A stretch of DNA of 64,000 nt from Candidatus Moraniibacteriota bacterium. Its GTDB lineage: Bacteria; Patescibacteriota; Minisyncoccia; Moranbacterales; UBA9337. Below, piece after piece: positions 27,116-61,735 of the stretch. The stretch covers positions 1,360-65,359 of the forward strand of contig JAOUHN010000001.1 of assembly GCA_029865125.1 (NCBI GenBank), written 5' to 3'. The notes beneath the pieces were generated by a model. That model worked only from the letters and a program-made list of their open reading frames with translations. It was not told the origin of the DNA and made no database searches. Numbering within the stretch: position 1 is the first letter of the stretch; every line of letters begins with the position of its first letter. Both the position numbers and the translations under genes were made by a program.

Positions 27116-28291
27116 TTATTTCTCAGCCAATTTTCTTCTAAGTTCCTCTAATTCTGCCTCTTGTCGCGCAATTATTTCTTTCTTTTTCTTATCTTCTTTT
27201 TTTAGATTCTCATTTTCTTCAGTCAAGCTATCAATTTTTTCCTGATCACTTCTTCCGGAGCGATAAATTGACTCAGTGAGTCTTTCCTTTTCATCTTCTG
27301 ATTCAGCTCTTCTTTCTTGATCCTTTTCCTTATTAACACTCATTTCCTTATCAGAAATACTAATCATCTTTTCAATAACATTCACTAATAATTCCTCATA
27401 TCCTTTGCCTTCAATATTTTCACCATCTAAAACATCCCTCAAAGCATCCTTCAAAATTGCCACCCCACCGCTAATGCTCGCTTTGAAACGAAAATCCCGT
27501 GGCCACGAGTCTGTGTCGAAACCTATTTTATCATAGGCTGCTTTCTGTTCATCATTAGAAAAATCCTGAACATCATCCATATCCAAACTTCCAACGTCCT
27601 CTTGGATTTTTTCAATAACATATTCAATAAACGTCCTATCTTTCACATTTTCTCCATCTATTCCAACAAAATCACTTTTTTCATTGAGTGATTTGCTCGC
27701 CTTAATCGCACACATAAATTCATCTCCTGATCTTCTTGCTGGATAAAACTTAATTCCAGATTCTCTCAACCACATTGCAGTTTTCCCTCCATTGAAAACA
27801 TCCGCGATTTTTTTCAAGAACAAGTCACCCGCATCATGCTTTCCTAGTGCATGATCATTGACTGATTTGAGGCCATCCACGTCAAAAAAAATCATGGCGC
27901 TTTTGCTCAAATCCTCAAAAGATCCCTCCCTGCTTTCAATTAAGTTGTCATCTACAAGCTCCAGAAGCTCCGCTTTGAGAAAATTGAAATTGGCAATTCC
28001 AATTCGATCATCATAATAATTCGCAAGAGCGTCCAAAACAAACCATCTGGAAGTTTTTCGCAAAGCCCCTTCATTTACCTCCATCTCCCTTAGCTCTTTT
28101 ACCCTGTTACTAATAATCTCAACAGCCCCCTCAGGAAGACTACACCTTACTTCAAGATCCTTCAAAATCTTTTCAATTTTCACCTCTTCTCTATCCCTTT
28201 TCTTTGTCATCCCTTCAACTAACTGTTCTATTTTTTCATCTCTCTCGGGAACATTTTCTGCACTAGGCATCATTCCTTGTTCTTTCATCAT
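27116..28291 (-). CDS. GGDEF-like nucleotidyl cyclase domain protein with degenerate SGDEF motif, N-terminal helical domain and C-terminal coiled coil
   Basis: IFFDVDGLKSVND ... GKHDAGDLFL ... YPARRSGDEFMCAIK matches the GGDEF palm-domain order D-x-D-x-[FL]-K-x-x-N-D / GHxxGD / RxGG[DE]EF. The C-terminus is charged and heptad-repeat-like. Confidence 0.6.
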   Translation of the reverse strand: MMKEQGMMPSAENVPERDEKIEQLVEGMTKKRDREEVKIEKILKDLEVRCSLPEGAVEIISNRVKELREMEVNEGALRKTSRWFVLDALANYYDDRIGIANFNFLKAELLELVDDNLIESREGSFEDLSKSAMIFFDVDGLKSVNDHALGKHDAGDLFLKKIADVFNGGKTAMWLRESGIKFYPARRSGDEFMCAIKASKSLNEKSDFVGIDGENVKDRTFIEYVIEKIQEDVGSLDMDDVQDFSNDEQKAAYDKIGFDTDSWPRDFRFKASISGGVAILKDALRDVLDGENIEGKGYEELLVNVIEKMISISDKEMSVNKEKDQERRAESEDEKERLTESIYRSGRSDQEKIDSLTEENENLKKEDKKKKEIIARQEAELEELRRKLAEK

Positions 28292-28356: not shown

Positions 28357-29250
28357 CTATCTCTTTGATTCAAGCACACCGTTTCTAGTGCTTCCATTTT
28401 TTCTCCATTCGCTACATTTCAAAACCTTGTCCCCACCCTGAAAACACTTATTATAGGAATCTAGACGACCCTCATACAAATAACTTTCTGCGTCAACAAT
28501 TTCCCCATGCATATACAAATGCCTCGAATCTTTCCCAAATGGCCCGCAAGCATCAAAAGTCCTGGCGTCAGCATTTTCAACTTTGACTCGACATCCCTCT
28601 GCTGTTTTTCCAATTTCTTCTGTTCCAATGTAATACACATTCTTTCCATCACTCGCATAATCATTGCTGCACTCAAACAAACTGAAGTTTTCAAGCAATG
28701 GGTATTGTTTGTTGTCACAATAATAATGTTTGTTGTCCAAACCACGATTAGACTCCGCATCCATCACAACAAAGGACTTCGGGTCAGAACCATCAAAAGC
28801 AATCAATTCTTTTGAATTATTCAAAAACACCTTGTCTCCATCATCAAAAAATGAATTGCATTTCCCTTCTCCCACCATGCTAAACTCAGAGGCCTCCACA
28901 TCGTCAACTACTGTCAACGCATTGAATACATATCCATTGCCATCACTTCTATCATCAAGAAAAAAAACTTTTTCATTGTCTCTTGCTATCATTCCACTGC
29001 AGCCAACCGCTTCAAATGAGTCCACTTGTGCTTGAGGAATGGTTTTGACAAGTGGCAACGCTGACTGCATGCCAAAACGACTCATGTCAAAATGAATCAG
29101 ATACCTGTCCACATAATACACCTTAAAAGAATCCTTATAATACCCTGCTTTTCCTATCTTCTCCTTGCCAAAAGGAGTGAAGACATAGGCAGCAACCAGT
29201 GCCACCACAGAGACCGCAATCAAATAGAACACCCATCCTCTTTTGTTCAT
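28357..29250 (-). CDS. Membrane-anchored DKNYY-type repeat protein
   Basis: N-terminal TM helix; repeated D(G)KN(V/Y)YY...ADxxTF units (DGKNVYYIGTEE..ADARTFDA; DNEKVFFLDD; GDKVFLNN; DNKHYYCDNK). Confidence 0.55.
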   Translation of the reverse strand: MNKRGWVFYLIAVSVVALVAAYVFTPFGKEKIGKAGYYKDSFKVYYVDRYLIHFDMSRFGMQSALPLVKTIPQAQVDSFEAVGCSGMIARDNEKVFFLDDRSDGNGYVFNALTVVDDVEASEFSMVGEGKCNSFFDDGDKVFLNNSKELIAFDGSDPKSFVVMDAESNRGLDNKHYYCDNKQYPLLENFSLFECSNDYASDGKNVYYIGTEEIGKTAEGCRVKVENADARTFDACGPFGKDSRHLYMHGEIVDAESYLYEGRLDSYNKCFQGGDKVLKCSEWRKNGSTRNGVLESKR

Positions 29251-29388: not shown

Positions 29389-29462
29389 AGCGGGGTGGAG
29401 CAGTCTGGCAGCTCGTGTGGCTCATAACCACAAGGTCGCAGGTTCGAATCCTGCCCCCGCAA
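29389..29462 (+). tRNA. tRNA with CAU anticodon (Met or Ile2-lysidine; A1·A72 mismatch, A11:U24)
   Basis: Acceptor AGCGGGG/CCCCGCA, anticodon arm TGTGG-CTCATAA-CCACA, T-arm GCAGG-TTCGAAT-CCTGC. Confidence 0.8.
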
Positions 29463-29518
29463 CACGAAGAATTGAGAGTGAGTTTTACAAGGAGTGAAAA
29501 ATACTCCTGGGCATATTT

Positions 29519-29592
29519 GCCAGGGTAGCTCAGTTGGTTAGAGCGCGGGACTCATAAGCCCGAGGTCGTGAGTTCAACTCTCACTCCTGGTA
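29519..29592 (+). tRNA. Second tRNA with CAU anticodon
   Basis: GCCAGGG-TA-GCTC-AGTTGGTTA-GAGC-G-CGGGA-CTCATAA-GCCCG-AGGTC-GTGAG-TTCAACT-CTCAC-TCCTGGT-A. Confidence 0.8.
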
Positions 29593-29595
29593 CAA

Positions 29596-29668
29596 AAAAC
29601 ATACAGCACATAACATGCAACATGCAGCAATTTTTTTGTTCTATGTTTCATGAGATGTGTTTCATGAA
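29596..29668. repeat. Heptanucleotide array between tRNAs (both orientations)
   Basis: AAAACAT ACAGCAC ATAACAT GCAACAT GCAGCAA ... ATGTTTC ATGAGAT GTGTTTC ATGAATA. Confidence 0.7.
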
Positions 29669-29675
29669 TAAACAC

Positions 29676-29749
29676 GGGGGCGTAGCTCAGCTGGTTAGAG
29701 CGATTGCCTGTCACGCAATAGGTCGAGGGTTCGAGTCCCTTCGCTCCCG
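29676..29749 (+). tRNA. tRNA-Asp (anticodon GUC)
   Basis: GGGGGCG-TA-GCTC-AGCTGGTTAG-AGC-G-ATTGC-CTGTCAC-GCAAT-AGGTC-GAGGG-TTCGAGT-CCCTT-CGCTCCC-G; discriminator G. Confidence 0.85.
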
Positions 29750-29945
29750 CAGAAGAAACTTGAAACAGAGTCGCCTTAGCTCTGTTTTAAGTTTTCTATT
29801 AGACAGAAAAGGATGAAAAGGGTATTTTAAAAAGACACCTGATCCTTTTCTTCAAGCATCCATAAGGTAAAAGCTCTTTGTAATAGAAAAGGTTTTTAGT
29901 TAGTAGCTATTGTCATCCTTTATTATCAACAGTGAAAAGACACAT

Positions 29946-30428
29946 TTAGCAAAAAATGCTTCCCATTATGTTCTGAAAAAAAACTAACTTATTTTTATAA
30001 AAAACCTGCTCCTTAGCAATGAAATAGCTCCAGTCACCATTTTTTTCAAAGACGTATTTCCAATCCTCAATTTCATATTTTTCAGGACCTCTAAGAGGAT
30101 TATTTTCATCAGTATTTCTAAGGGCTTCTTTTAGAAAAGCATAAGATTGATCTGGTTTTACTAAATCGTTTTCAATAAATTGTCCTTGATAAGCCATTGT
30201 CCAAAATGGCTTATTTTTATAGAAAACAATCTCTTTTCCGGGTGGAAAAATGTGGCCAGAATAGCTATCGTAATAAAGCCAATCATCTTTGGAAAATGAA
30301 TATTCAGTGTGTCCCAACATCTTTACCTTCTTACATCTGGTTAATGCTCTGTCTTCATCGGTTCCGGCATAAGTTTTTGAATGAGCTAAAAATAAAAATT
30401 TTTTAAACGCAGCTTCTTTTTTTATCAT
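29946..30428 (-). CDS. Hypothetical protein (160 aa, Trp/Tyr-rich)
   Basis: ORF only; divergent from the radical SAM operon. Confidence 0.45.
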   Translation of the reverse strand: MIKKEAAFKKFLFLAHSKTYAGTDEDRALTRCKKVKMLGHTEYSFSKDDWLYYDSYSGHIFPPGKEIVFYKNKPFWTMAYQGQFIENDLVKPDQSYAFLKEALRNTDENNPLRGPEKYEIEDWKYVFEKNGDWSYFIAKEQVFYKNKLVFFQNIMGSIFC

Positions 30429-30554
30429 TGACTTAGATTGAATTTAATGCTATATTTTTTTATCGAGCTCCTTAAGCCCGATAGTATCTTAATAATAGAA
30501 TAAACGTGAGAATAAGGCAATAAGCCAAAAACAAAGTCTTAGAGGAGATGATTT

Positions 30555-31523
30555 ATGACGAAACGAAAGAATGTGGTATGGAACTTAACTAAACTGTGTC
30601 CATTTGGATGCACCTTCTGCTGTGTGTCAGCAACTTACGTTAAAGGTTTTAAACAAGTTTTTTCTGTCAATGATGATACGCCTGTGATTGAAAGTGAATT
30701 ATCCTTCAACAAACAGTTGCAAGTAATTGATCAATTGGATGCTGAAAAGTTTAGGATCGACTTTTCAGGAGGAGATGTATTGATAAATCCACGAAACATT
30801 GATCTAATTATCTTGGCGTCTGAAAAATTTGGAGCGGAAAATATTGGGTTAAGCATCCCTGGCACATTTACAACTCCAAATAATTTAAGTAAGTTAACTG
30901 GAAGGATTAATGATGTTGAGATTACGATGGATACTACGCCGGATATAAATTATTCTTATCGTCCGCTAAATTATGCTGAACACGCTTCTGATGCTATAGC
31001 AAGATTGGTAGACGCAGGATTTTTTGTTGGAGTACAAACCGTGTTGCGCAGGGAAAATATGTTTAAAGAGACGATTAAAAGACTACACAAGCACTTATTG
31101 CTGCTTGGGGTAAAAAAATGGAGTTTTTTAAAATTTGCTCCTGTGGGAAGAGGCTATAGTAAGTGTGAAAATCATCCCAGTGACGAAGAATACCGTAAAT
31201 TTTCTGACGTCATAAAACACGTAACCCTGAACTCAATGATTGAGGTACATTATCAATACCTGATGCCGTTGAGTCCTGCAAGAGACTTTTATTGTCGTGC
31301 AATTAAAGATTCTATCGGCATTGCGCCAGACGGGACTGTAAGTTCTTGCTTTTGGGCTTTTAATCAAAATGGAAAACCTTTTGATGATGTTGTGTTAGGC
31401 AAGGTTCCAGAGGATAACATCCTTGATATTTTGAAATCTGAAAAAGCAAGAGAATGGCTTTCATATGGTAAAACCAAAAATTATTGTCCCCTTAAAAAAA
31501 TTCTCAGAGGAGGAGTGATATGA
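30555..31523 (+). CDS. Radical SAM enzyme (CxxxCxxC) with C-terminal Cys-containing SPASM/twitch-like region
   Basis: N-terminal LCPFGCTFCC (Cx3Cx2C), FSGGDVL (GGE-like SAM motif), and C-terminal SSCFWAF...NYCP. 322 aa. Confidence 0.75.
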   Translation: MTKRKNVVWNLTKLCPFGCTFCCVSATYVKGFKQVFSVNDDTPVIESELSFNKQLQVIDQLDAEKFRIDFSGGDVLINPRNIDLIILASEKFGAENIGLSIPGTFTTPNNLSKLTGRINDVEITMDTTPDINYSYRPLNYAEHASDAIARLVDAGFFVGVQTVLRRENMFKETIKRLHKHLLLLGVKKWSFLKFAPVGRGYSKCENHPSDEEYRKFSDVIKHVTLNSMIEVHYQYLMPLSPARDFYCRAIKDSIGIAPDGTVSSCFWAFNQNGKPFDDVVLGKVPEDNILDILKSEKAREWLSYGKTKNYCPLKKILRGGVI

Positions 31524-32494
31524 ATTATGCATTGATGACTTTTCTTTACAATTTTTTTGACCTAGGTTGCTTTTTATGGAGCATGCAACTTTTCGGACTA
31601 AAAGAAGGGTCCATTATTTTTGTCTTTGCAAAAATTGGAAGACTCTCTGTAGAAACCATCAAAGTAAAGTCGTTCCACATTGTTTTTGGAGTATTCTTCT
31701 TCGGAATAGTTTTGGGAATAATCTCCGTGTACACTACCTGGTTATTTACTTGCCTAGGAGCCCCTTTTGTTATATTTGGCATATCCAAAATAAGGGAATA
31801 TTTTGGGATATTAGAAAAACCGCCCAGAAGGTACAAAATACTATCCAGAATGGTAGGGTTTTGTTTGGCTCCACTATTTAACTTTTGGGTTTTAATTCCA
31901 TTTTTTTGCTATTTAGCTTTTAGCTTGCGCAATCAAAATGAGATTAAAAGTGAGAGGAGAGCACCCCTTTTCCCTTATTTAGAACAACACGAATGGCAAT
32001 ATACATTACTAATCACTCATCAGATTCATTATTTTGCATACGCATTTCTGGTGCCGTACACAGCATGTGCCATTTTCAACGTAAATATCATGTTTGCTGG
32101 AATCATTTTTTTTATTGGTTGGGGCGCATATAACCTGTACGAAAAAATTCTAGCGCATAAATTAAAATACGTTGCTTATGGGCACTTCATTGCCGGATTT
32201 GGAGTTTGCATCATATTATTCTTTCAGCAAAGCTTACTGGCGTTAATTATCGGTTGGTTTATAACTGGAATTGGTGGTGGAACTTTTTATATTATAAAAA
32301 GTAAGCTACCAGATGACATCGGGAAAGCAGAAGTTGTAGAGCTTTGGGGTCAGTTACTCGGAATGGCCTTATTTGCTATAGGAGTAAATTTCGCAAATAG
32401 TAGTTATCTCTATTTTTCTGCTATAATATTTGCAACCGCAACATCCGTAATCGCATTATTTTTAGAGAAAGACTATGTCAGAAATAACAGCTAA
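31520..32494 (+). CDS. Polytopic membrane protein (8-10 TM helices), unknown function
   Basis: Start overlaps the upstream stop (ATGA) and its 3' end overlaps the next gene by 20 nt, indicating translational coupling. Confidence 0.6.
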   Translation: MNYALMTFLYNFFDLGCFLWSMQLFGLKEGSIIFVFAKIGRLSVETIKVKSFHIVFGVFFFGIVLGIISVYTTWLFTCLGAPFVIFGISKIREYFGILEKPPRRYKILSRMVGFCLAPLFNFWVLIPFFCYLAFSLRNQNEIKSERRAPLFPYLEQHEWQYTLLITHQIHYFAYAFLVPYTACAIFNVNIMFAGIIFFIGWGAYNLYEKILAHKLKYVAYGHFIAGFGVCIILFFQQSLLALIIGWFITGIGGGTFYIIKSKLPDDIGKAEVVELWGQLLGMALFAIGVNFANSSYLYFSAIIFATATSVIALFLEKDYVRNNS

Positions 32495-33275
32495 AACAAT
32501 AATTACCAAGAGTAAGCTTCCAGAAGTGGACTACTGTTTTAATCCCTACATCGGCTGTACTCATCGTTGTGCCTATTGCTATGCCAGGTTTATGAGTAGA
32601 TTCACTGGGCACACAAACGAAAAATGGGGCACCTATCTGGATTGGAAGATTAATGCCCCAGAACTCTTAAGAGAGGAGGCTTCTCGAATCAAAAAAAAGG
32701 GCGGTGTGGTTATTCTTGGCAGTGTAACTGATTGCTATCAACCCATAGAAAGCAAGCTTGAGTTGACACGTAAGTGTCTGGAAGTGTTTTTGGAATACCA
32801 GATCCCAATTTCTATCCTTACAAAAAGTAGTCTGGTTGAGCGAGATTTTGACTTACTCAGTCAGCTTAAATATTGTGAGATAGGGATTAGCTTAAGTATT
32901 CTTAACAAAGAACAACAAAAAGCTCTCGAGCCCGGAGCTTCGAGTCCAATGGAGCGAATTAGGGTTCTGAAAAGAGCTTTCGATTTAGGCTTAAACACCT
33001 ATGCCTTTATTGGGCCAATTCATCCATTCCTTGGAGAAACGGAGAAGGTTATTAGGGAAGTTTGTCCATATGTTAATTTCATTATGGGTGAAATTCCAAA
33101 TCTCCGTTGTGGCAACTGGAAAGACTTTAGTCAAACATTGAAAGAGCTAAAGATTAATCCAGTAGATTATAGAAAAGTCGCCGAAAGCGATGAATTTTAT
33201 AAAAAAGCCGATGGACTGCTTAAAAAATTGTGCGAAGAATGTTCCGTAGAATATAGAGGCACATTTAAGCACTAG
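32475..33275 (+). CDS. SplB-family (DNA-repair-photolyase-like, COG1533-type) radical SAM protein
   Basis: FNPYIGCTHRCAYCYARF matches the NPYxGCxxxCxYC[YF]A signature. 266 aa. Confidence 0.75.
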   Translation: MSEITAKTIITKSKLPEVDYCFNPYIGCTHRCAYCYARFMSRFTGHTNEKWGTYLDWKINAPELLREEASRIKKKGGVVILGSVTDCYQPIESKLELTRKCLEVFLEYQIPISILTKSSLVERDFDLLSQLKYCEIGISLSILNKEQQKALEPGASSPMERIRVLKRAFDLGLNTYAFIGPIHPFLGETEKVIREVCPYVNFIMGEIPNLRCGNWKDFSQTLKELKINPVDYRKVAESDEFYKKADGLLKKLCEECSVEYRGTFKH

Positions 33276-33290
33276 GCTCTTAAATTTAAC

Positions 33291-33335
33291 GCTCCCCAGT
33301 AAGATGTATCTTACTGGGGAGTTTTATTTTTGGGT
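33291..33335 (+). terminator. Operon terminator (CCCCAGTAAGAT-GTA-TCTTACTGGGG plus T-rich tail)
   Basis: A 12-bp perfect stem. Confidence 0.7.
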
Positions 33336-33714: not shown

Positions 33715-34203
33715 ATGACTATTAAAAAATATATAATTTCTGCAGGATTGATATTTAATAAAAAAAATCAAATTCTTTTAGTCAAACACACCCCAGAGTT
33801 TGGATCGGATTATTATTGGACTGTCCCTGGGGGCTCGGCTAACGAGAATGAAGATAAGATAACCGCTCTGTTAAGAGAAGTCAAAGAGGAAACAGGAGTT
33901 GATATATGTAAAATAAGCAAACTTGTTTACAAAGTTAAGCACATTAATTACAAAAGAGAGTGGGATCATGACATTTACACTTATAAAATTGATAATTGGA
34001 AGGGTGACTTGGTGATAAATGATCCCGATAATGACACAGTTGATTTGAAATGGTTTGATATAGATAAAGCAATTAATGTGCTTAAGAAAAATCCATTTAG
34101 AGTTATAAAAGAGCCGTTGATTGATTATCTAATTGGAAAAGAACGAATAAAAAACTGGGATTATTTAGAAGATAAAAACGGAAAAATAGCGCGCATTTTA
34201 TAA
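33715..34203 (+). CDS. NUDIX hydrolase
   Basis: Nudix box GGSANENEDKITALLREVKEETGV (GX5EX7REVXEEXG). 162 aa. Confidence 0.85.
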   Translation: MTIKKYIISAGLIFNKKNQILLVKHTPEFGSDYYWTVPGGSANENEDKITALLREVKEETGVDICKISKLVYKVKHINYKREWDHDIYTYKIDNWKGDLVINDPDNDTVDLKWFDIDKAINVLKKNPFRVIKEPLIDYLIGKERIKNWDYLEDKNGKIARIL

Positions 34204-34364
34204 AAAGCCTATTTTAGGGATAGTTTTGTTTAAGTGCTAGCTTATTTTTTATTCCCCCAAAACCAACCTCTCTCACAACAAAAAAGTGAATAAGATGAAA
34301 TACATAGGTAACACTATAAATTTAGTAAAATTAAAAAATAATAACTTAAAATAATTAAAATTCC

Positions 34365-34562
34365 ATACCTGTCATTCCGGAAAATATATTTTTCAGTCTG
34401 AGTAATCGAAAACTTGAAAAATAGTTTATCCGGAATCTACGCTAACAATAGCCCCAGAATTACTATATCATCTCAGATTATATACAGCGTAGATTCCGGA
34501 TAAGTTAATTTCTTTGAGCTCGATTACTCGCTCAAGAAATTATACTTTCCGGAATGACAAGA
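34365..34562. repeat. Roughly 200-bp nested imperfect palindrome (MITE-like long hairpin)
   Basis: Perfect outer inverted repeat TGTCATTCCGGAAA (34368-34381 with 34546-34559). Perfect inner inverted repeat TATCCGGAATCTACGCT (34428-34444 with 34485-34501). Arms are colinear with equal 43-nt spacers of about 65% identity (GAGTAATCGA / TCGATTACTC). Confidence 0.8.
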
Positions 34563-34633
34563 TAAAGAGAAAGGCTTCAATTAATTCTTAAACTTAGTAT
34601 ACCATGCGTGCTATTTTAATACTCAAGAGAAAA

Positions 34634-34807
34634 TGAAGGTGATTGCTAATCTCACGGACAAATATCTGAATGAAAAAAGCATAACACCTTCTAAAGTTTT
34701 AGAGTTCATGGGATGCGCACCTGCGGCCATAAAGCAAATTGAATCCGGAATCACCCTCCAGGATCCCTATGTAAAGTTTCTTATGCTGATCGTTAAAAGT
34801 GATTAAA
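34634..34807 (+). CDS. Possible small ORF (57 aa) next to the palindrome
   Basis: MKVIANLTDKYLNEKSITPSKVLEFMGCAPAAIKQIESGITLQDPYVKFLMLIVKSD. Contains a CAGGATCCC repeat-core fragment. Weak support. Confidence 0.2.
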
Positions 34808-35055
34808 ATCACACGACAAATACAAATCTTTACTTCCACCTAGAACATAGATTAACATCTTAGTTCCAGGCGGTTTTTTATTTCCCAAAAACCAATTTCT
34901 CACACAACAAAAAAGGCTTCGGGGTTTGAATTCGGGGTTTGACGTTTAGCATTGACATTTCTTCTTTTTTGGCCTATCCTGGACTATCTGATTTAATTCC
35001 ACCACACCGCGCAATACTTTATCAATCCAATTATTTCTGCTACCATATAAACATT

Positions 35056-54975: not shown

Positions 54976-55010
54976 ACAAAAAACTACTCATCAAATGAGT
55001 AGTTTTTTGT
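54976..55010. terminator. Bidirectional terminator (ACTACTCAT-CAA-ATGAGTAGT)
   Basis: A6 upstream and T6 downstream. Serves both the NYN gene and tRNA-Leu. Confidence 0.7.
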
Positions 55011-55016
55011 TATTCT

Positions 55017-55100
55017 GGTGCCGCGGGAGAGACTCGAACTCTCACGGGTTGCCCCACCAGTTCCTAAGACTGGCGTGTATACCAATTTCACCACCGCGGC
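55017..55100 (-). tRNA. tRNA-Leu (anticodon UAG), class II, CCA encoded
   Basis: Reverse strand: GCCGCGG-TG-GTGA-AATTGGTAT-ACAC-G-CCAGT-CTTAGGA-ACTGG-TGGGGCAACCCGT-GAGAG-TTCGAGT-CTCTC-CCGCGGC-A-CCA. Confidence 0.85.
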
Positions 55101-55401
55101 GTAATAAAAACCTGGGTTCACAGGTTTTTTCAAGTACCCTACGAGTGTAATACAATTTTTCAAACTTTGCAAGAGCCCCAAATTACGAATGTATGAATGA
55201 AAGAATATAAGCATTTAGGCATAATCCTAAATTCTCAACTTCCTATCCCAATACCTGGGCAATCCGCATCACTTCTTCCTTGAGCGCCCCATCATTCTCA
55301 TATTCCCCGCTTCAAACTTCTTTTTAATCAAAAAGCAAGCGCTTGTCCTACAAAAACAAACACTTGCTATATATCACCTCCCCGAAATAAAGAACTTTCC
55401 C

Positions 55402-56241
55402 TTAATGCTTAATCGACTCAAGCCCAACGCTTTTGACCCAAAAGCCGGTCTCGTCGTCTCGTTCGATGGAAACCGTCGAACCGACATTTTCCATCGTGGC
55501 CTTCCATTTTCGAAGATCGGCATACTCCCGATCATCAAAATGGACTGGCCGACCTTCCCTTTGGGCCAGCAATGCCCGACACATCATGTCGGCTGCCAAC
55601 CACTCGGCCTGTTCCTCGAGAGTGGCCTTGGAGTACTCAATGCTCCAATGCCAGCCCTCTTGGACAAACCCAGTCAAAAGGGTCGAGGGGTCGACCTGAC
55701 CCGGGAAAAATAGCTGGGTCCTGCCAGCAAATTTTCCCGAAGTCGCTGTGACGGAAATTCCGCGATAAACGCGGATTTCGTCAAAGCCCTCAGTTAGTTC
55801 CGGCAGATTATCGGCCAACTGACTGGCCATCTGCCGAATAGTATCCTCCGGGAGGGTCGCTTTCTTGCCCTGAGCCGCCCGCTTTTGCTGGCGCTCAAGG
55901 CAAACCTCCAGTGGTGTGTCCATCAGGACCGCCACCACTCGGGAAGCATGTGGCTTTCCAGCCAGGATGTTGTCCCGACGCCATTTCCGAATAATATTCG
56001 TGGCATCAAAAACGACATCCCGGCCAGCCTTGAGACTGCCGGCAATTTCTTGCCTAGCAATCTCGAAAGCCCTGTCAGACCCAACTCGGTGCTTCACCCG
56101 AATATCATCCGGGCAAATCACCGTCGCCTCGGTTGTTTCGGCAATCCATTTCGCATGAAACGACTTGCCAGAACCGGGGATGCCGACCATGAACCAAAAG
56201 GTTGGCCCTGTCATTTCTGGCATCAATCCTCCTTTTTCCAA
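55402..56241 (-). CDS. P-loop polynucleotide-kinase-like (AAA_33/zeta-like) kinase with C-terminal domain of unknown function; high GC
   Basis: Walker A MVGIPGSGKS and an FDATN motif; 279 aa. Roughly 55% GC against roughly 33% for the window. Confidence 0.65.
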   Translation of the reverse strand: MEKGGLMPEMTGPTFWFMVGIPGSGKSFHAKWIAETTEATVICPDDIRVKHRVGSDRAFEIARQEIAGSLKAGRDVVFDATNIIRKWRRDNILAGKPHASRVVAVLMDTPLEVCLERQQKRAAQGKKATLPEDTIRQMASQLADNLPELTEGFDEIRVYRGISVTATSGKFAGRTQLFFPGQVDPSTLLTGFVQEGWHWSIEYSKATLEEQAEWLAADMMCRALLAQREGRPVHFDDREYADLRKWKATMENVGSTVSIERDDETGFWVKSVGLESIKH

Positions 56242-56430
56242 TAAACCCGGAATTTGAATTTTTATTCCAAAGAACTCCTCTCATCTTTGAAACACCAATT
56301 TATTGGTATCTCAATAATGAGTTTCAAACGCCGCGCCGTTTGAACTGATTTTAACCCTTTTTTAAATTAAAGAACTATTTACCACACGCGGGTGACACAC
56401 AAATCAGTCCTCAGACCATATTGTTCCGTC

Positions 56431-56922
56431 TCAGAAAACATGGTCGCCTCCTTCGCCATTAAAGATTCGTATTGATGAGCGAAACTCTTCTTCATCCCGC
56501 TCCTCCTCATCATCAACTGAAGGACCGACTTGCAGTCGATCCCATTCGTAGTCGGTCACGGGAATCACTGGGCGAGCATCCCAAGTGACTCTTTCTGGGG
56601 GATAGACTTCAGTCCAGATAAATTCATCATCTGGGCTGAAATCAACGAATACCACCTTATAGGTGGTTCCGTCGAATGCTACAGCCTCCACGGTTTTTCT
56701 TTTTGCCTTCACCTCCTTCCGATATAGTATATCTATATCGTCCCGATACTGTTCATGATACTCCGCCAAGAGCATTCCCTCGATAAAGGACCTCTTGACA
56801 TCTTCGTCTTCTACGGTGTAGAGGACGTGAACGGTAGCAACCGCTCTCTCATGAAAAGCACACGGGTCAAAGTCCAGCCCAAGATCGAGCATCTTCGCTA
56901 CCTGCGCAGCTATTTTGCTCAT
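56431..56922 (-). CDS. Hypothetical acidic protein, high GC
   Basis: 163 aa with no motif; acidic C-terminal stretch DDEEERDEEEF. Confidence 0.5.
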   Translation of the reverse strand: MSKIAAQVAKMLDLGLDFDPCAFHERAVATVHVLYTVEDEDVKRSFIEGMLLAEYHEQYRDDIDILYRKEVKAKRKTVEAVAFDGTTYKVVFVDFSPDDEFIWTEVYPPERVTWDARPVIPVTDYEWDRLQVGPSVDDEEERDEEEFRSSIRIFNGEGGDHVF

Positions 56923-56949
56923 AAACCAGGGTTATTCTCAGTTTTAGAA

Positions 56950-57155
56950 ACAAATGAAGCGAGCATCTTTTTCATAACCATTCCCTCCTCAGAAAATTTT
57001 GCCCAAAAACGGGCGTTAAACTTTGCTCAAAACGAGCCTTTCTGTTACGAACCTAAAACAACTTTTTTGAAATTATCTTGGGTTCGTAGCAGAAGCCTGA
57101 AAGAAAATATATGATTTTCTCGGATAAATATTTTTTGATTCAAAGAACTTTTCAA
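56950..57155. repeat. Roughly 175-bp direct repeat, copy 1 (contains a conserved hairpin)
   Basis: About 85% identical to 61736-61910; the 3' 50 nt are identical (AAATATATGATTTTCTCGGATAAATATTTTTTGATTCAAAGAACTTTTC). Confidence 0.9.
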
Positions 57156-57228
57156 CTATAAGCTTTCAATAAATTCAAAAGCTTAATAATCGGCAGGAGA
57201 ACGGATCGCTGTCCATTCTCCTGCTTTC

Positions 57229-58107
57229 CTACATTCTTCTTGCTATAGCGGCCTGCCTTACCGCTAGGCTAGAGGAGGAAGAGGTCACATTGGCGAGCTC
57301 AAAGACTCGCTTCACGCACCTCTCCGCCTCCTCACGAGACAAATGCGGTCCTAGTCCAATTCCTTCGCGCAAATACCACTCGCGCGGGGATAGAAGACTG
57401 AAACCTGCATCTGCTACTTTTTCCCGCCAACCATCCTCGGGTAGAATTTCTTCGTTTTCTTTCCCGATATAATGTCGGCGTGAGGCCTCCGGCATCCATG
57501 AACTCATCCGAGCATCGCAATACCGGAGACCTTTGACCGAGATCTCGCTATATCCGAGCTTGTGTAACTCGGACAGGAATCCGAGATCGGAAACTCCTGC
57601 TATATACGGATGCGCTATTGGCAAGGCGCGCACTCCATACTCTTTTGCCAATGCGAGAGTTTCGAGGTGCTGTTGCACCGAAACTCTTTCGATTGGTAAA
57701 TGGTTGCCCGTAATCCCGACTACTAAAAACAGATTGTGATATTGGGCGAGCTGTGCCATTTGCCAACGGCTTGCCGGCCACTTTGACACTAAAGTGACCA
57801 GTTTTGTCCGGGACGCCACCTGCTCAAGAAAATATTGCAAGTAGTAGTCGATTTTTGGCCAGAGAGGATCAGTGATGGCAGTAAATCCGACAAAATCCCC
57901 CTCAAGCACTTCCCAAGGAAAGTTGAAAAAGCGACGTTCAACTTCATTGTTTTCAATGATCCAAGGTGGCACATTGATATATGTGCATGCCTTGTTGATA
58001 CCCGCCACTGGATTTTGATTCCAGACTTCACGGCGGGTATCATGCTCGGTGATGAAACAGTATTTACAAGCCACTGGGCAAGCCGGATTTCCAGCAATGA
58101 ATTTCAT
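57229..58107 (-). CDS. SplB-like radical SAM protein, high GC
   Basis: N-terminal AGNPACPVACKYCFIT (Cx3CxYC[F]); 292 aa. Overlaps the upstream ORF by 4 nt. Confidence 0.7.
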   Translation of the reverse strand: MKFIAGNPACPVACKYCFITEHDTRREVWNQNPVAGINKACTYINVPPWIIENNEVERRFFNFPWEVLEGDFVGFTAITDPLWPKIDYYLQYFLEQVASRTKLVTLVSKWPASRWQMAQLAQYHNLFLVVGITGNHLPIERVSVQQHLETLALAKEYGVRALPIAHPYIAGVSDLGFLSELHKLGYSEISVKGLRYCDARMSSWMPEASRRHYIGKENEEILPEDGWREKVADAGFSLLSPREWYLREGIGLGPHLSREEAERCVKRVFELANVTSSSSSLAVRQAAIARRM

Positions 58108-59261
58108 TTTCTGTTTCCTTTGAAAAAATTTAATAATTCAGTCGGCATACACCCAACTGAACCTTTGTTTGGATACAACTCGCTCACGCAGTACTTGCAC
58201 CCAAAACAATTATCCAGCTGACGCGCCCAGACAAACCAAGAGTTTATGCAATGAATTGACATCTTCGTCAGTTCTTGCATTTTCGTGACATGCCCGACAT
58301 CCTTTCTTGCTCCGTCCACCATACCCGGCTTCACACAAAGCGTTCCACCAAGCACGAACCGACAAAAAGTCAAATCACCAAGGGTTTCGGCATTGTGAAC
58401 CATTACTCGCGGTTGCCTTTGTACGAAACAAGTCGTGCAACACGACTGACATTCTAACCTATTGTCAGTCTGAAACCCACAGACTTGCCTTGAGGCTGGT
58501 TGGTATTCAATATCATATCCAACCTGCCTGAGCCAGATCAAAACTTCCTGATCAGGCTCAACCGGACCACATGTTCCACGTAAGGGACATCCGATCGCCT
58601 CACAGCGCACTAATTGGGGTGAGCCCCAGTATGGATTGAGTGGCTTCTCCCGTCCAGTGAGATATGAAACAGCACAGTTCACTCTCGTGAACAACCGGAT
58701 TCCGTTCTCTTTCGCAACCCGCAAAATCTGATCAAATCCAGTCATCTGTTTCACACGCAAAACCCAGTCTATCGCATTGTCAGGGTTAACCGCCTCTACG
58801 AGAGAAGCGTCTCCGCGAAATCCTGAGACACAGGCCACTTTGCATCCCACTGCCTGAAGGCGAGTGAAAATGCGATTGATTACCTCCTCACTAGTGTTGT
58901 AAGGAGGAATGAGCGGCCGCACTGCTGCAAAACATTTAACTCCTGCTTCCCGAAGATTACGGAGTGTCTCATACCGATGATCGTGTCCGACTTTTTCAAA
59001 TCCGTCAGGAAGCTCACTAATGGAAACCATCACGACAAGCCCAGAAAGATTCAAAAAAGCTAACTCGTTTGCGCGAGATGGACCAATTGATCCTTTGGTG
59101 ATAACACTCACTGGGCCAGTGTGACCCGCCTCAGCCAATAACCGCAACTTCCTCATAGTGTCCTCCCACTGCAAAGTGGGGTCACCATAGTAACAATTTA
59201 TAGATACCGGCATAGACAGCAAAGCCCTTATTATCTTTTTCATAACGCCCTCCTGCGTCAT
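58104..59261 (-). CDS. Cys-rich protein of unknown function (multiple CxxC/CxxCxxC clusters), high GC
   Basis: 385 aa, translationally coupled to the radical SAM gene. C-terminal NCFGCKYC and CQSCCTTC clusters. Confidence 0.55.
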   Translation of the reverse strand: MTQEGVMKKIIRALLSMPVSINCYYGDPTLQWEDTMRKLRLLAEAGHTGPVSVITKGSIGPSRANELAFLNLSGLVVMVSISELPDGFEKVGHDHRYETLRNLREAGVKCFAAVRPLIPPYNTSEEVINRIFTRLQAVGCKVACVSGFRGDASLVEAVNPDNAIDWVLRVKQMTGFDQILRVAKENGIRLFTRVNCAVSYLTGREKPLNPYWGSPQLVRCEAIGCPLRGTCGPVEPDQEVLIWLRQVGYDIEYQPASRQVCGFQTDNRLECQSCCTTCFVQRQPRVMVHNAETLGDLTFCRFVLGGTLCVKPGMVDGARKDVGHVTKMQELTKMSIHCINSWFVWARQLDNCFGCKYCVSELYPNKGSVGCMPTELLNFFKGNRK

Positions 59262-59360
59262 TATTTATATCAAAGAACCTCTAACATTAAATTCTTGCGC
59301 ACAATTGCGCTTTTGGAAAAACCAATTTTGCGTCCCCAAAAGCGCAATCAAGCGCTTATT

Positions 59361-60737
59361 TTATCTTTTTGTTATCTCCTTGATAGCCAAGATGAACCTC
59401 TCAACATCCTCATTGGTATTGCACAAAGAAAATGAAGCTCTGATAAATCCCGGCACCGCGCTTTTCTTTTCGTTTTTAATATTCTCAATAATTTCTTTTT
59501 CATCTTCAATCCTTAGCAACTTTCGAATCACATTATAAACACAGAAACTTCCATATCTTACACCAATACCGAATTCACTGTTCAATCTCTCTGCAACTTT
59601 TTTTGAATTCATACCTTTGATATTAAAAGGCAATACCGTATTTAAATGCTTTTCTGATACATATAACTCAATCTTTGGATTTGATTTTAAATAATCAAAA
59701 GCTTTCTTGGTTAGTTTTTTTTCATAACTTTCAATATTTTCAATCCCAATATTTCTCAATTCTTCTAATGCATACATCATTGACACCGCTCCAACCGCAT
59801 TGGGCGTCCCAGGATCATGAGCTAGCTGATTCTTATATCTCAGAAATTCACCTTCTTTAGTTATGTATGGCAAATTTCCACCACCGATCTCATAAGAAAT
59901 AAATTTGTCAAAGAAATTTTTCGGTCCAATCAAGAATCCTCCGCCATAAGGAGCATAGAACTTATGACCCGATGCCGCCAAAAAGTCGATTCCCATTTTC
60001 TGCATATCTATTTTATGGTGTTGAATGAATTGACAAGCGTCCACAATAAAATACGCCCCGTGTTTATGAACAATTTCTCCAATTTTTTTAATATCAGGAC
60101 AATAACCGGTTGCATTTGATGAGGCGGTCAACACAAAAGCTTTGATTTTATTAGTACTCAAAATATTTTCAATACTTTTCAAATCAAATTCAAACTCATT
60201 ATTAACATCATATTGCACAACCTGCTTTCTTCCTTCTTTTTGAATTTTTTCACTAACATTATCCATTTCAGATAAATCAAACTGCTTCTTGCCTATTTTT
60301 TTAATCCCCTCAGCTTTGATCCAAGGAAGCCACGAGGAAGAATGTTCTATTCCAGAAACAGCTACTTTTCCCTCCAAAAATGAAAAATAATGTGCAGCCG
60401 CATTCATTGCACCTGTTGTATTTCCCGTAAAAACAACGTAATCGCTCTTAGGAGCATTAACAAATTTTTTTATAACATCCCTACTTTTTTCATAAATATC
60501 TGTAGAAATTTTTGATTTTATTCCTGCACCTCTATGAACAGACCCGTAACTAGATAAATATTCATCAACTTTTTTCTGAACAGCTCTAAAGGGAGGTGTT
60601 GTAGCAGCATTATCTAAATTAACATAACGAACAACCCCAAGTTTACTTGTTTCAACTTGGTAATTATGAATTTTACTCAAAAATAATTTCTTTGGATTAA
60701 TTTTCATATAAAAAAATATTAATAATTTTCTCTTCAT
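59361..60737 (-). CDS. Class V aminotransferase / cysteine-desulfurase-like PLP enzyme (AT-rich, native composition)
   Basis: PLP-Lys motif ASGHKFYAPYGGGFL, an N-terminal NLDNAATTP, and a C-terminal GSFC loop. 458 aa. Confidence 0.75.
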   Translation of the reverse strand: MKRKLLIFFYMKINPKKLFLSKIHNYQVETSKLGVVRYVNLDNAATTPPFRAVQKKVDEYLSSYGSVHRGAGIKSKISTDIYEKSRDVIKKFVNAPKSDYVVFTGNTTGAMNAAAHYFSFLEGKVAVSGIEHSSSWLPWIKAEGIKKIGKKQFDLSEMDNVSEKIQKEGRKQVVQYDVNNEFEFDLKSIENILSTNKIKAFVLTASSNATGYCPDIKKIGEIVHKHGAYFIVDACQFIQHHKIDMQKMGIDFLAASGHKFYAPYGGGFLIGPKNFFDKFISYEIGGGNLPYITKEGEFLRYKNQLAHDPGTPNAVGAVSMMYALEELRNIGIENIESYEKKLTKKAFDYLKSNPKIELYVSEKHLNTVLPFNIKGMNSKKVAERLNSEFGIGVRYGSFCVYNVIRKLLRIEDEKEIIENIKNEKKSAVPGFIRASFSLCNTNEDVERFILAIKEITKR

Positions 60738-60895
60738 CTCAAATCTTATTCGTATATTTGTAAATTTGTGAAAAATTTGTAATTCATATACTAAATAAGA
60801 TCTGAGAAAAGGGATAGAGCAGGCAAGCGCTGTTGCGTGCTCTATCTGTTGTGAGAGAGTTTAGTTTAGGCACTCTCTCGGAAGCCTTGAAATAT

Positions 60896-61732: not shown

Positions 61733-61735
61733 CGC

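What the first reader, a model, noticed from the sequence alone, without database searches (positions are those of the whole stretch)
29389..33335. Operon of two radical SAM enzymes and a polytopic membrane protein downstream of a three-tRNA cluster
The operon is a radical SAM/SPASM-like enzyme (CPFGCTFCC), then a 324-aa membrane protein with 8-10 TM helices, then an SplB/COG1533-like radical SAM (NPYIGCTHRCAYCYA). ATGA and 20-nt overlaps indicate translational coupling, and a strong terminator follows (33291-33335). The cluster begins right after tRNA(CAU), tRNA(CAU), tRNA-Asp, with a divergent unknown gene and a NUDIX hydrolase plus the 200-bp palindrome beyond. Inference: an accessory cassette at a tRNA hot spot. 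The obligate membrane partner suggests modification of a membrane-associated substrate (lipid, cofactor or exported peptide). I do not recognise this gene triad as a described pathway.
Basis: partly seen in the sequence, partly recalled or inferred. Interest (0 to 1): 0.75.

Follow-up and report, generated by a model that had tools for sequence, protein, structure and literature searches.

The report
Mobile four-gene radical SAM cassette
A rare, self-contained set of four genes (two radical-SAM enzymes, a transporter and a small protein of unknown function) sits next to tRNA genes in tiny uncultured bacteria, appears to move between genomes, and probably makes or processes an unidentified small molecule.

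Summary
Three translationally coupled genes lie at 30555-33275: a radical SAM enzyme with a partial SPASM domain, a membrane protein, and an SPL/COG1533-type radical SAM enzyme. A promoter-like site precedes them, a strong terminator follows, and three tRNA genes lie upstream.

Comparison with 12 lineages changes the picture.
- The "divergent unknown gene" (DUF5680, 29946-30428) belongs to the unit. It accompanies the first radical SAM gene in 11 of 12 lineages, in three different positions.
- The membrane protein is a divergent 12-helix MFS-fold permease with no Pfam family. It is absent from two relatives, so it is not obligate.
- The cassette is accessory and mobile. Its flanks differ in every genome. 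Four lineages have it beside four different tRNA genes. One copy is bracketed by a 98%-identical 89-nt direct repeat that starts in a tRNA end. It also occurs in an Omnitrophota genome beside an IS66 transposase. Three lineages carry frameshifted or truncated copies.
- No conserved precursor-peptide ORF was found.
- In a spore-former, the first radical SAM gene and DUF5680 sit inside an NRPS-like cluster with an exporter.

Best reading: a small-molecule biosynthesis and export cassette with an unknown product. No equivalog family or published paper describes it. Interest is moderate.

The parts
29389..29750 (+). Cluster of three tRNA genes: tRNA-Met(cat) 29389-29463, tRNA-Met(cat) 29519-29593 and tRNA-Asp(gtc) 29676-29750. 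It forms the left border and is the likely insertion context of the cassette.
   Evidence: ARAGORN and Rfam tRNA hits of 60-71 bits. tRNA-Asp ends 195 nt from the DUF5680 stop codon. Other lineages carry different tRNAs at the cassette border.
29946..30428 (-). DUF5680 protein of 160 aa, the fourth and divergently transcribed gene of the cassette. Its likely role is to bind a ligand or act as an accessory partner of the first radical SAM enzyme.
30429..30554 (.). Divergent 126-nt control region holding a promoter-like site (TTGACT-17-TATATT with TG, 30428-30456) and the GGAG ribosome-binding site of gene 1.
   Evidence: Consensus scan, 10 of 12 matches, and the sequence itself. The equivalent 78-121-nt gaps in other loci carry short palindromes that differ in sequence. 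No Rfam riboswitch was found.
30555..31523 (+). Radical SAM enzyme 1 (322 aa). It has CX3CX2C at Cys15/19/22 and a C-terminal partial SPASM or twitch-like region with three conserved cysteines (Cys247, Cys265, Cys311).
   Evidence: Pfam Radical_SAM 43 bits and SPASM 30.2 bits, both above the gathering score. The best NCBIfam hit, TIGR04133, scores 48 bits against a cut-off of 425. Conserved cysteines are from alignment A2. The profile reaches MoaA, SkfB and NifB only at E about 1e-4.
31520..32494 (+). Divergent MFS-fold permease (324 aa, about 12 helices arranged 6+6). Conserved polar motifs HHxHYF, GWGAYN, GH, GGGTFY and ExxELWGQ lie in the C-terminal half.
   Evidence: No Pfam or NCBIfam hit. 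The AF2 model has pLDDT 81 and pTM 0.82. Foldseek matches NorA, MdfA and SotB at E 1e-5 to 1e-4 with query TM-scores of 0.57-0.71. Only 12 relatives were found among 5.8 billion clusters.
32475..33275 (+). Radical SAM enzyme 2 (266 aa) of the SPL/COG1533 clade. CX3CX2C lies at Cys28/32/35. Cys212 (PNLRCGNW) and the C-terminal His266 are conserved in most cassette-type copies.
   Evidence: Pfam Radical_SAM 61.9 bits. NCBIfam scores are all below their cut-offs: TIGR04470 'mobile pair protein B' 167 bits (cut-off 410), PA0069 159 bits, Rv2578c 126 bits. It is 41% identical over 215 aa to the Bacteroides plasmid protein B. Alignment A8.
33291..33335 (+). Intrinsic terminator that closes the operon.
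   Evidence: A 14-bp stem with 7 G-C pairs and a 4-nt loop, followed by TTTATTTTT. A comparable hairpin plus T-run follows the last gene in five other loci.
33715..34203 (+). NUDIX hydrolase (162 aa). It is a possible loose associate and not a core part of the cassette.
   Evidence: Pfam NUDIX 65 bits. A NUDIX gene lies within about 0.5-1.5 kb of the cassette in 4 of about 10 contexts: the window, L006, L013 and L029. These proteins share only 24-28% identity.

Best explanation
This is a self-contained, horizontally mobile accessory cassette of four genes. A DUF5680 protein is transcribed divergently from an operon that encodes a radical SAM enzyme with a three-cysteine auxiliary-cluster region, a 12-helix MFS-fold permease, and an SPL/COG1533-type radical SAM enzyme.

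Most likely it converts an ordinary soluble metabolite into a specialised small molecule through two successive radical SAM reactions. The permease then moves that compound across the membrane, with export more likely than import. DUF5680 probably acts as a ligand-binding or auxiliary partner of the first enzyme.

Shown here:
- the gene set, the translational coupling, and the single promoter and terminator;
- both CX3CX2C motifs;
- the MFS fold of the membrane protein;
- conservation of the set through rearrangement;
- placement at different tRNA genes, and an 89-nt flanking direct repeat in one genome;
- decay of the cassette in some lineages;
- absence of a conserved precursor-peptide gene;
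- membership of the radical SAM 1 plus DUF5680 pair in an NRPS-like cluster elsewhere.

Inferred, not shown:
- the radical chemistry (5'-deoxyadenosyl radical, hydrogen abstraction);
- an auxiliary cluster with an open coordination site on three cysteines;
- the direction of transport;
- the role of DUF5680;
- the small-molecule nature of the substrate.
For: Gene set and conservation:
- The four genes recur together in 12 lineages at 30-75% identity, with DUF5680 in three different positions.
- Coupled junctions, one promoter-like site and one terminator.
- Radical SAM and SPASM Pfam hits pass the gathering score, and three C-terminal cysteines are conserved.

Transporter:
- The AF2 model matches MFS drug and solute carriers at TM 0.57-0.71.
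- More distant relatives of this membrane family again sit next to relatives of radical SAM 1 at 25-30% identity.

Biosynthetic context:
- In L030 a 45%-identical radical SAM 1 gene and DUF5680 lie inside an NRPS-like cluster. That cluster has a PCP-TE protein, a thioesterase, an A-PCP protein, a NodU-like carbamoyltransferase, a PreA/DHODH-like reductase and an ABC-2 exporter.
- In L028 radical SAM 1 and the permease plus radical SAM 2 pair frame a co-directional run of GH13, GT5, GT2 and MFS genes with short gaps.

Mobility:
- Every lineage has different flanks. These include restriction-modification systems, an IS66 transposase with HicA, and an rve-type IS.
- A tRNA gene lies at the border in four lineages, which gives P about 4e-6 to 1e-3 under simple random placement.
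- An 89-nt, 98%-identical direct repeat brackets exactly the four genes in L006.
- The cassette is also present in an Omnitrophota MAG.

Dispensability:
- A 1-bp deletion lies inside the DFSGGD codons in three independent assemblies.
- A 2-bp insertion is polymorphic between assemblies of one species.
- L014 carries only a truncated remnant.

Against a peptide substrate:
- No conserved small ORF was found in the flanks of 10 loci.
Against: - No substrate or product is identified, and nothing in the Moranbacteria cassette points to a precursor.
- SPASM-type enzymes most often modify peptides or proteins.
- The COG1533 clade's only characterised member repairs DNA.
- The biosynthetic reading rests largely on one distant locus (L030), which lacks radical SAM 2 and the MFS-like gene.
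- The direction of transport is unknown, so uptake and salvage or efflux and detoxification fit the same gene set.
- The AF2 models come from shallow alignments of 11 and 5 sequences.
- CPR bacteria are generally poor in biosynthetic pathways (general knowledge).
Confidence: 0.45

Rival explanations
1. Uptake and salvage, or detoxification and resistance. The MFS-fold protein imports a scavenged compound or pumps out a toxic one. The two radical SAM enzymes convert or inactivate it, and DUF5680 sequesters it.
For: The closest named relatives of radical SAM 2 are 'radical SAM mobile pair protein B' genes on Bacteroides and Selenomonas plasmids. There they sit beside a MarR regulator, a chloramphenicol acetyltransferase and an MBL-fold hydrolase. 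The best structural matches of the permease are drug:H+ antiporters such as NorA, MdfA and SotB. The cassette is accessory, mobile and dispensable. Stand-alone DUF5680 genes on Bacillus cereus plasmids lie near an SMI1/KNR4-type gene and IS elements. CPR bacteria depend on scavenging (general knowledge).
Against: Two radical SAM enzymes are an expensive and unusual way to inactivate a compound. The L030 context is biosynthetic and has its own exporter. No regulator of the MarR or TetR type is present in the cassette.
Confidence: 0.2
2. A function aimed at nucleic acids. The SPL-family enzyme, helped by the first radical SAM enzyme, repairs or modifies DNA or tRNA, or the set is an anti-phage defence module that makes a nucleotide analogue.
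For: Radical SAM 2 belongs to the COG1533 'DNA repair photolyase' clade. The cassette lies beside tRNA genes. It sits next to restriction-modification genes in L008 and L012 and next to an AcrVA2-like gene in L029. NUDIX genes recur nearby, at P about 1e-3 to 1e-2. Radical SAM 1 gives weak viperin hits of 34-38 bits.
Against: The SPL structures match only the Cys-motif segment, residues 12-37, at E 0.02. The viperin score of 33.7 is far below the cut-off of 180, and PADLOC finds no system. The adjacent tRNAs have different identities, which points to an insertion site rather than a substrate. A permease has no obvious role in such a function. The NUDIX proteins share only 24-28% identity. No homologue was found in viral contigs or phage records.
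Confidence: 0.12
3. Maturation and export of a ribosomally made peptide (RiPP). The radical SAM/SPASM enzyme cross-links a precursor peptide and the MFS protein exports it.
For: A SPASM Pfam hit is present. Weak NCBIfam hits reach peptide maturases such as AlbA, SbtM, mycofactocin MftC and FlmE. An exporter is encoded in the operon. L015 has another radical SAM/SPASM gene next door.
Against: No conserved ORF of 15-90 aa was found within 800 nt of 10 cassettes. The Cys motif starts at residue 15, which leaves no room for an N-terminal RRE domain, and there is no PqqD hit. Only 3 of the 7 canonical SPASM cysteines are present. No protease gene is present.
Confidence: 0.1
4. Modification of a lipid or another membrane-embedded substrate. 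In this reading the membrane protein presents the substrate or is itself an enzyme.
For: The membrane gene is translationally coupled between the two enzymes. Its C-terminal half carries unusually conserved His, Glu and Tyr motifs. Radical SAM enzymes that modify lipids are known (general knowledge).
Against: The fold is that of a solute carrier. L029 and L030 keep radical SAM 1 and DUF5680 without the membrane protein. No lipid-biosynthesis genes are linked to the cassette.
Confidence: 0.05

Closest known systems
Radical SAM mobile pair system (NCBIfam TIGR04471 protein A, TIGR04470 protein B and a MarR regulator) on Bacteroides and Selenomonas plasmids
   Same: Both have two radical SAM genes side by side on mobile DNA, and neither has a known function. 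Radical SAM 2 here is 41% identical over 215 aa to protein B, which is its best family hit.
   Different: The score is 167 bits against a cut-off of 410. The partner enzyme is a 322-aa SPASM-type protein unrelated to the 222-aa protein A. A permease gene sits between the two enzymes. DUF5680 takes the place of MarR. The hosts are CPR and Omnitrophota bacteria.
Radical SAM/SPASM peptide maturase cassettes with an exporter (for example subtilosin AlbA and SkfB)
   Same: Both pair a radical SAM enzyme carrying a C-terminal SPASM-type Fe-S region with a dedicated membrane exporter in a small operon.
   Different: There is no precursor peptide, no RRE domain and no protease. Only three C-terminal cysteines are conserved, and a second radical SAM enzyme of the SPL clade is present.
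Small-molecule radical SAM enzymes with one auxiliary cluster (MoaA, and BtrN with its twitch domain)
   Same: MoaA is the best solved-structure match at E 1e-4. The protein is short, and its C-terminal region has few cysteines. In MoaA, three cysteines hold an auxiliary cluster that leaves one iron free for the substrate (the MoaA chemistry is established knowledge).
   Different: The similarity is marginal, and the BtrN match has E about 0.8. The cysteine spacing differs, and no molybdenum-cofactor or aminoglycoside genes are present.
Spore photoproduct lyase SplB and the uncharacterised COG1533 families PA0069 and Rv2578c
   Same: Radical SAM 2 falls in the same clade by NCBIfam, at 126-159 bits.
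   Different: It is below every cut-off. The SPL structures align only over the Cys motif. There is no sporulation or SOS context. In L006 a separate Rv2578c-like paralogue sits beside the cassette, so the two are distinct.
MFS transporters of the DHA1 drug:H+ antiporter type (NorA, MdfA, SotB)
   Same: The predicted fold and the 6+6 helix topology match, at TM 0.57-0.71.
   Different: There is no sequence-level membership: 30 family members gave no Pfam MFS hit. The protein is only 324 aa long and has its own conserved His, Glu and Tyr motifs.
Genomic islands integrated at tRNA genes
   Same: The cassette borders a tRNA gene in four lineages. In L006 a direct repeat beginning in a tRNA 3' end flanks it.
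   Different: It is only 3.3-3.6 kb long. No integrase lies inside it, and none is annotated within about 10 kb of it in this contig. Repeats were seen in only one lineage, with a weaker 50-nt pair in L017.

Membership tests
Radical SAM superfamily (genes 1 and 3) | A CX3CX2C cluster-binding motif near the N-terminus and a Pfam PF04055 score above the gathering score | tested here: met
   Cys15/19/22 in gene 1 and Cys28/32/35 in gene 3. PF04055 scores 43 and 61.9 bits against a gathering score of 29.5. The motifs are conserved in all intact orthologues.
SPASM-domain radical SAM enzymes (gene 1) | A Pfam PF13186 hit | tested here: met
   30.2 bits against a cut-off of 21.5, over residues 247-302.
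SPASM-domain radical SAM enzymes (gene 1) | The full seven-cysteine motif (CX9-15GX4C ... CX2CX5CX3C ... C) that holds two auxiliary clusters | tested here: not met
   Only Cys247, Cys265 and Cys311 are present and conserved in the close family. More distant relatives lack the middle one. This fits at most one auxiliary cluster, as in a twitch-like domain.
RiPP maturase system | A precursor-peptide gene next to the maturase | tested here: not met
   No conserved ORF of 15-90 aa was found within 800 nt of 10 cassettes. The only cross-locus matches were translated tRNA genes and antisense frames.
RiPP maturase system | An RRE/PqqD-like leader-binding domain | tested here: not met
   There is no PqqD or RRE Pfam hit. 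The Cys motif begins at residue 15, so no N-terminal domain fits. The DUF5680 model does not resemble a winged-helix RRE.
Radical SAM mobile pair system (TIGR04470/TIGR04471) | Protein B reaches the equivalog cut-off | tested here: not met
   166.9 bits against a cut-off of 410.
Radical SAM mobile pair system (TIGR04470/TIGR04471) | An adjacent protein A partner and a MarR regulator | tested here: not met
   Gene 1 shares only the Cys-motif stretch with protein A (24 bits). It gives no TIGR04471 hit. No MarR gene is present.
Spore photoproduct lyase (SplB) | Full-length similarity to SPL, including its catalytic Cys/Tyr radical relay | tested here: not met
   No SplB model appears among the NCBIfam hits. 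A profile of 13 sequences matches SPL structures only over residues 12-37, at E 0.02.
Prokaryotic viperin (pVip) | A score above the family cut-off | tested here: not met
   NF038283 scores 33.7 bits against a cut-off of 180. PADLOC pVip models score 38 bits, which is only generic radical SAM similarity.
Major facilitator superfamily | Twelve transmembrane helices in two six-helix bundles (the fold) | tested here: met
   The AF2 model (pLDDT 81, pTM 0.82) has about 12 helices with a central loop at residues 137-157. Foldseek finds 90 PDB matches at E of 1e-3 or better, and all 50 listed are MFS carriers, with query TM-scores up to 0.71.
Major facilitator superfamily | Sequence-level membership (Pfam MFS_1 or related models) | tested here: not met
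   The window protein gives no hit. Of 30 members of the wider family, one reaches MFS_1 at E 0.18.
DUF5680 (PF18931) | A Pfam score above the gathering score | tested here: met
   86.1 bits against a cut-off of 25, over residues 54-156. The function of the family is unknown, and a full-text search found one paper that only lists the name.
tRNA-targeted integrative element | A border at a tRNA gene | tested here: met
   The window, L006, L012 and L015 each have a different tRNA within about 200 nt of the cassette. Binomial P is 4e-6 to 1e-3.
tRNA-targeted integrative element | Flanking direct repeats derived from the tRNA | tested here: inconclusive
   L006 has a clear 89-nt repeat at 98% identity, beginning with the tRNA-Gln 3' end. 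L017 has a weaker 50-nt pair at 88%. None was detected in the window or in six other loci.
tRNA-targeted integrative element | An integrase encoded in the element | tested here: not met
   The unit contains only the four genes. No integrase Pfam hit appears among neighbours within about 10 kb in this contig. Transposases lie next to the L026 and L029 copies.

The most novel reading that the evidence does not exclude
The pair formed by radical SAM 1 and DUF5680 defines an undescribed radical SAM biosynthetic step. It is shared by an NRPS-like cluster in a spore-former and by a minimal four-gene cassette that spreads among ultra-small CPR bacteria and Omnitrophota. The cassette spreads by insertion at tRNA genes without an integrase of its own. 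It lets these metabolically reduced cells make and export a bioactive small molecule, for example a nucleoside-like or sugar-derived antimetabolite.
Probability: 0.2. Interest if true: 0.75.

Novelty: new variant of a known kind. Interest (0 to 1): 0.5.

Why it matters
Candidate Phyla Radiation bacteria are thought to have very little specialised metabolism. A compact, mobile cassette with two radical SAM enzymes and its own carrier would therefore be a rare handle on chemistry they can perform or exchange.

The work also assigns a first genomic context to three unannotated families:
- DUF5680 appears as the constant partner of a particular radical SAM enzyme.
- A Pfam-less MFS-fold family recurs beside relatives of that enzyme.
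- A new branch joins the SPL/COG1533 clade, next to the equally unexplained 'radical SAM mobile pair'.

The cassette is only 3.3 kb and four genes long, so it can be tested directly by heterologous expression. The caveat is that uncharacterised radical SAM clusters are very common, and nothing here yet points to an unusual product.

Tried and rejected
- Sequence searches of both radical SAM enzymes and a DUF5680 profile against PDB chains gave nothing useful. Profile searches reached only MoaA, SkfB and NifB, or the SPL Cys motif.
- PADLOC found no defence system.
- Viral contigs and phage records hold no relatives of the permease or DUF5680.
- Plasmid records hold no relative of radical SAM 1. 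They hold only stand-alone DUF5680 genes in Bacillus and Rahnella, in uninformative contexts.
- Paper searches found no paper on the function of these families. 'radical SAM mobile pair' and PA0069 returned nothing, and DUF5680, COG1533, queuine lyase and SPL homologues returned nothing relevant. A queuosine-salvage idea, prompted by tRNA-Asp and the transporter, therefore stays untested and was dropped. The neighbouring tRNAs also differ between genomes.
- The word-indexed protein search with DUF5680 returned only 5 proteins, so the structure model rests on a shallow alignment.
- The afdb50 fold library was unavailable.
- My first small-ORF screen was swamped by alternative frames inside the conserved genes and was redone on the flanks only.
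- I first noted that tRNA adjacency was not conserved. Scanning all loci corrected this.
- No Rfam riboswitch or other RNA lies in the leader.
- NUDIX linkage was considered and kept only as a weak hint, because the neighbouring NUDIX proteins are not clearly orthologous.

Full report
**What is in the window**

The window is part of an 81.8-kb metagenomic contig. NCBI labels the membrane protein as coming from a Candidatus Moranbacteria bacterium, a member of the Candidate Phyla Radiation.

The finding's coordinates hold up.
- tRNA-Met(cat), tRNA-Met(cat) and tRNA-Asp(gtc) lie at 29389-29750.
- A 160-aa gene lies on the minus strand at 29946-30428.
- Three plus-strand genes follow at 30555-31523, 31520-32494 and 32475-33275.
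- The first junction is an ATGA overlap preceded by GGAGGAG. The second is a 20-nt overlap.
- A promoter-like TTGACT-17-TATATT site lies at 30428-30456.
- A 14-bp hairpin with a T-run lies at 33291-33335.
- No Rfam element lies in the leader.

**The proteins**

*Gene 1 (322 aa).* It passes the Pfam thresholds for Radical_SAM and SPASM. Its CX3CX2C motif is at Cys15/19/22. Its C-terminal region has only three conserved cysteines (247, 265, 311), not the seven of a full SPASM domain. No NCBIfam equivalog comes close: the best is TIGR04133 at 48 bits against a cut-off of 425. A profile reaches solved structures only at E about 1e-4, namely MoaA, SkfB and NifB.

*Gene 3 (266 aa).* It is a radical SAM enzyme of the SPL/COG1533 clade. 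It scores 167 bits against 'radical SAM mobile pair protein B' (cut-off 410), 159 against PA0069 and 126 against Rv2578c. It is 41% identical over 215 aa to the Bacteroides plasmid protein B. It matches spore photoproduct lyase structures only across the Cys motif.

*Gene 2 (324 aa).* It has no Pfam or NCBIfam family. An AlphaFold2 model (pLDDT 81, pTM 0.82) shows about 12 helices in a 6+6 layout. It matches MFS carriers such as NorA, MdfA and SotB at TM 0.57-0.71. Thirty members of the wider family give no Pfam membership.

*The divergent gene.* It is a DUF5680 protein (86 bits). Its model (pLDDT 84.5) is a helix-backed antiparallel sheet with only weak resemblance to chorismate lyase and UTRA effector domains.

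**Comparative evidence: four genes, not three**

The permease family is very rare. Only 12 clusters were found among 5.8 billion, and three representatives above 240 bits among 1.84 billion.

I retrieved the surroundings of its relatives and of the relatives of gene 1. This gave 12 lineages whose gene 1 is at least 34% identical.

- DUF5680 is present in 11 of the 12 lineages.
  - It lies divergent and upstream in six Moranbacteria-type lineages.
  - It lies convergent and downstream in a dolphin-mouth Moranbacteria lineage (L013/L017).
  - It lies co-directional and downstream in L019, L026 and L029.
  - In L030 it sits inside a larger biosynthetic cluster (described below).
- Gene 3 is present in 11 lineages.
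- The permease is present in 10 lineages.
- L029 keeps gene 1, gene 3 and DUF5680 without the permease.

Retention through rearrangement is strong evidence of a functional unit. Gene 1 plus DUF5680 is its most constant pair.

More distant relatives of the permease (20-27% identity) again sit beside relatives of gene 1 that are 25-30% identical. Their other partners differ: DgcN-like, FemAB-like or unknown proteins.

**Accessory and mobile**

The flanks differ in every lineage:
- topoisomerase I on one side, and an AAA_14 ATPase with RecQ on the other;
- LexA and CHAP, with restriction-modification genes;
- a DNA methylase with IceA;
- an IS66 transposase with HicA;
- an rve-type IS.

One copy lies in an Omnitrophota MAG.

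In four lineages the cassette border lies within about 200 nt of a tRNA gene, and the tRNA is different each time: Met/Met/Asp here, Gln, Asn, and Met with Leu. Under simple random placement this has a probability of about 4e-6 to 1e-3.

In L006 an 89-nt direct repeat of 98% identity brackets exactly the four genes, with copies 3581 nt apart. It starts with the last 7 nt of tRNA-Gln. The 3' half of that tRNA is also duplicated perfectly. This looks like an insertion scar, although no integrase is inside. The window copy shows no such repeat.

The cassette is also decaying in places.
- A 1-bp deletion inside the invariant DFSGGD codons of gene 1 is shared by three independent assemblies. In that lineage gene 3 has also diverged unusually (47% identity against 58-74% in the other complete cassettes).
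- A 2-bp insertion is polymorphic within one species.
- L014 holds only a remnant.

**What it probably does**

No conserved small ORF accompanies the cassette. Gene 1 has no room for a leader-binding domain. A peptide substrate is therefore unlikely.

In L030 the neighbouring spore-coat gene points to a spore-forming bacterium. There, a 45%-identical gene 1 and DUF5680 lie within an NRPS-like cluster. The cluster contains a PCP-thioesterase, a second thioesterase, an adenylation-PCP protein, a NodU-like carbamoyltransferase, a PreA/DHODH-like reductase and an ABC-2 exporter.

In L028, gene 1 at one end and the permease plus gene 3 pair at the other frame a co-directional run of GH13, GT5, GT2 and MFS genes with short gaps.

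These contexts favour tailoring of a small molecule coupled to export. NUDIX genes recur near four copies, but they are only 24-28% identical to each other. This is no more than a hint of a nucleotide-derived substrate.

I therefore commit, at about 45% confidence, to a small-molecule biosynthesis and export cassette. In it the two enzymes act in sequence and DUF5680 assists the first. The rivals are:
- salvage or detoxification, about 20%;
- a function aimed at nucleic acids, or defence, about 12%;
- RiPP maturation, about 10%;
- lipid modification, about 5%.

The chemistry, the direction of transport and the role of DUF5680 are inferences.

**Comparison with known systems and verdict**

The nearest named system is the uncharacterised 'radical SAM mobile pair' of gut-bacterial plasmids. 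The cassette shares a protein B-like enzyme and mobility with it. It fails the score cut-off, has an unrelated partner enzyme, and adds a permease and DUF5680.

It is not SplB, not a viperin, not a canonical SPASM peptide maturase, and not a recognised MFS family by sequence.

I rate it a new variant of a known kind, namely small mobile radical SAM cassettes. Interest is moderate. The unit is real, rare, well delimited and easy to test. Its product is unknown, and uncharacterised radical SAM clusters are common.

Noticed in passing
window 34245-34915: Two 42-nt direct repeats (88% identical, 34245-34286 and 34874-34915) flank a 629-bp segment. That segment contains the inverted repeat of about 200 bp (74-nt arms at 34370-34443 and 34486-34559, 76% complementary, each arm itself a hairpin) and a 57-aa ORF with no Pfam hit. 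It looks like a small non-autonomous insertion (MITE-like) between the NUDIX and phosphoesterase genes.
   Followed up: partly
window 55000-62000: G+C content rises to 0.46-0.50 against about 0.37 elsewhere, directly beside tRNA-Leu(tag) at 55016-55100. The genes there include an AAA_33 kinase-like protein, several proteins with no Pfam hit and a 385-aa protein with a sub-threshold Radical_SAM hit. A class V aminotransferase sits in a lower-G+C gap within the stretch. This may be another acquired island at a tRNA gene.
   Followed up: partly
L030 2157-12706: An NRPS-like cluster from a sample of a spore-forming bacterium. In order: HTH_3 regulator, gene 1 homologue (45% identity), thioesterase, PCP-thioesterase, DUF5680, PreA/DHODH-like reductase with a ferredoxin domain, NodU-like carbamoyltransferase, ABC-2 exporter, adenylation-PCP protein. 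I know of no product for it.
   Followed up: partly
L020 1-5636; L021; L022: Distant relatives of gene 1 (379 aa, CPWDCDICC) and of the permease (340 aa) form a different conserved cluster. Its other genes are a DUF1611/DgcN-like protein, a FemAB-like protein and an ordinary MFS_1 transporter. This may be amino-acid or peptide chemistry.
   Followed up: partly
L006 7082-7987 and 6461-6874: A second COG1533 radical SAM gene (Rv2578c-like, 222 bits) and a NUDIX gene lie immediately beside the cassette, beyond the tRNA-Gln. This shows that the cassette's enzyme is a paralogue distinct from the Rv2578c-type copy.
   Followed up: partly
L008 9249 (also L009 and L010); L003 9435 (also L004); L014 7864-8066: Independent inactivating changes in the cassette. 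A 1-bp deletion in the DFSGGD codons is seen in three assemblies. A 2-bp AT insertion is absent from a sister assembly. One remnant retains only the last 46 codons of gene 1 and the first 22 codons of the permease.
   Followed up: yes
window 33715-34203; L006 6461-6874; L013 5838-6149; L029 1982-2398: NUDIX hydrolase genes lie within about 0.5-1.5 kb of the cassette in four of about ten contexts, on either side and on either strand. They are only 24-28% identical to each other.
   Followed up: partly
L015 9969-9992 and 10269-10292: A 24-nt piece covering the 5' end of the tRNA-Met next to the cassette is repeated exactly 300 nt away, between tRNA-Met and tRNA-Leu. This is another tRNA-fragment duplication at a cassette border.
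   Followed up: no
window 27116-28291 and 28357-29250: Upstream of the tRNAs lie two genes. One is a 391-aa protein with a sub-threshold GGDEF match (21.5 bits against 23.8) and a highly charged Glu/Lys-rich C-terminus. The other is a 297-aa DKNYY-family protein with an N-terminal hydrophobic segment.
   Followed up: no
L023 5950-6426 (Bacillus cereus plasmid pBFR_2); L032 4902-5357 (Rahnella plasmid): Stand-alone DUF5680 genes on large plasmids sit next to IS3 transposases. In Bacillus they also sit near an SMI1/KNR4-family gene. No radical SAM gene is nearby, so the domain also works outside this cassette.
   Followed up: partly
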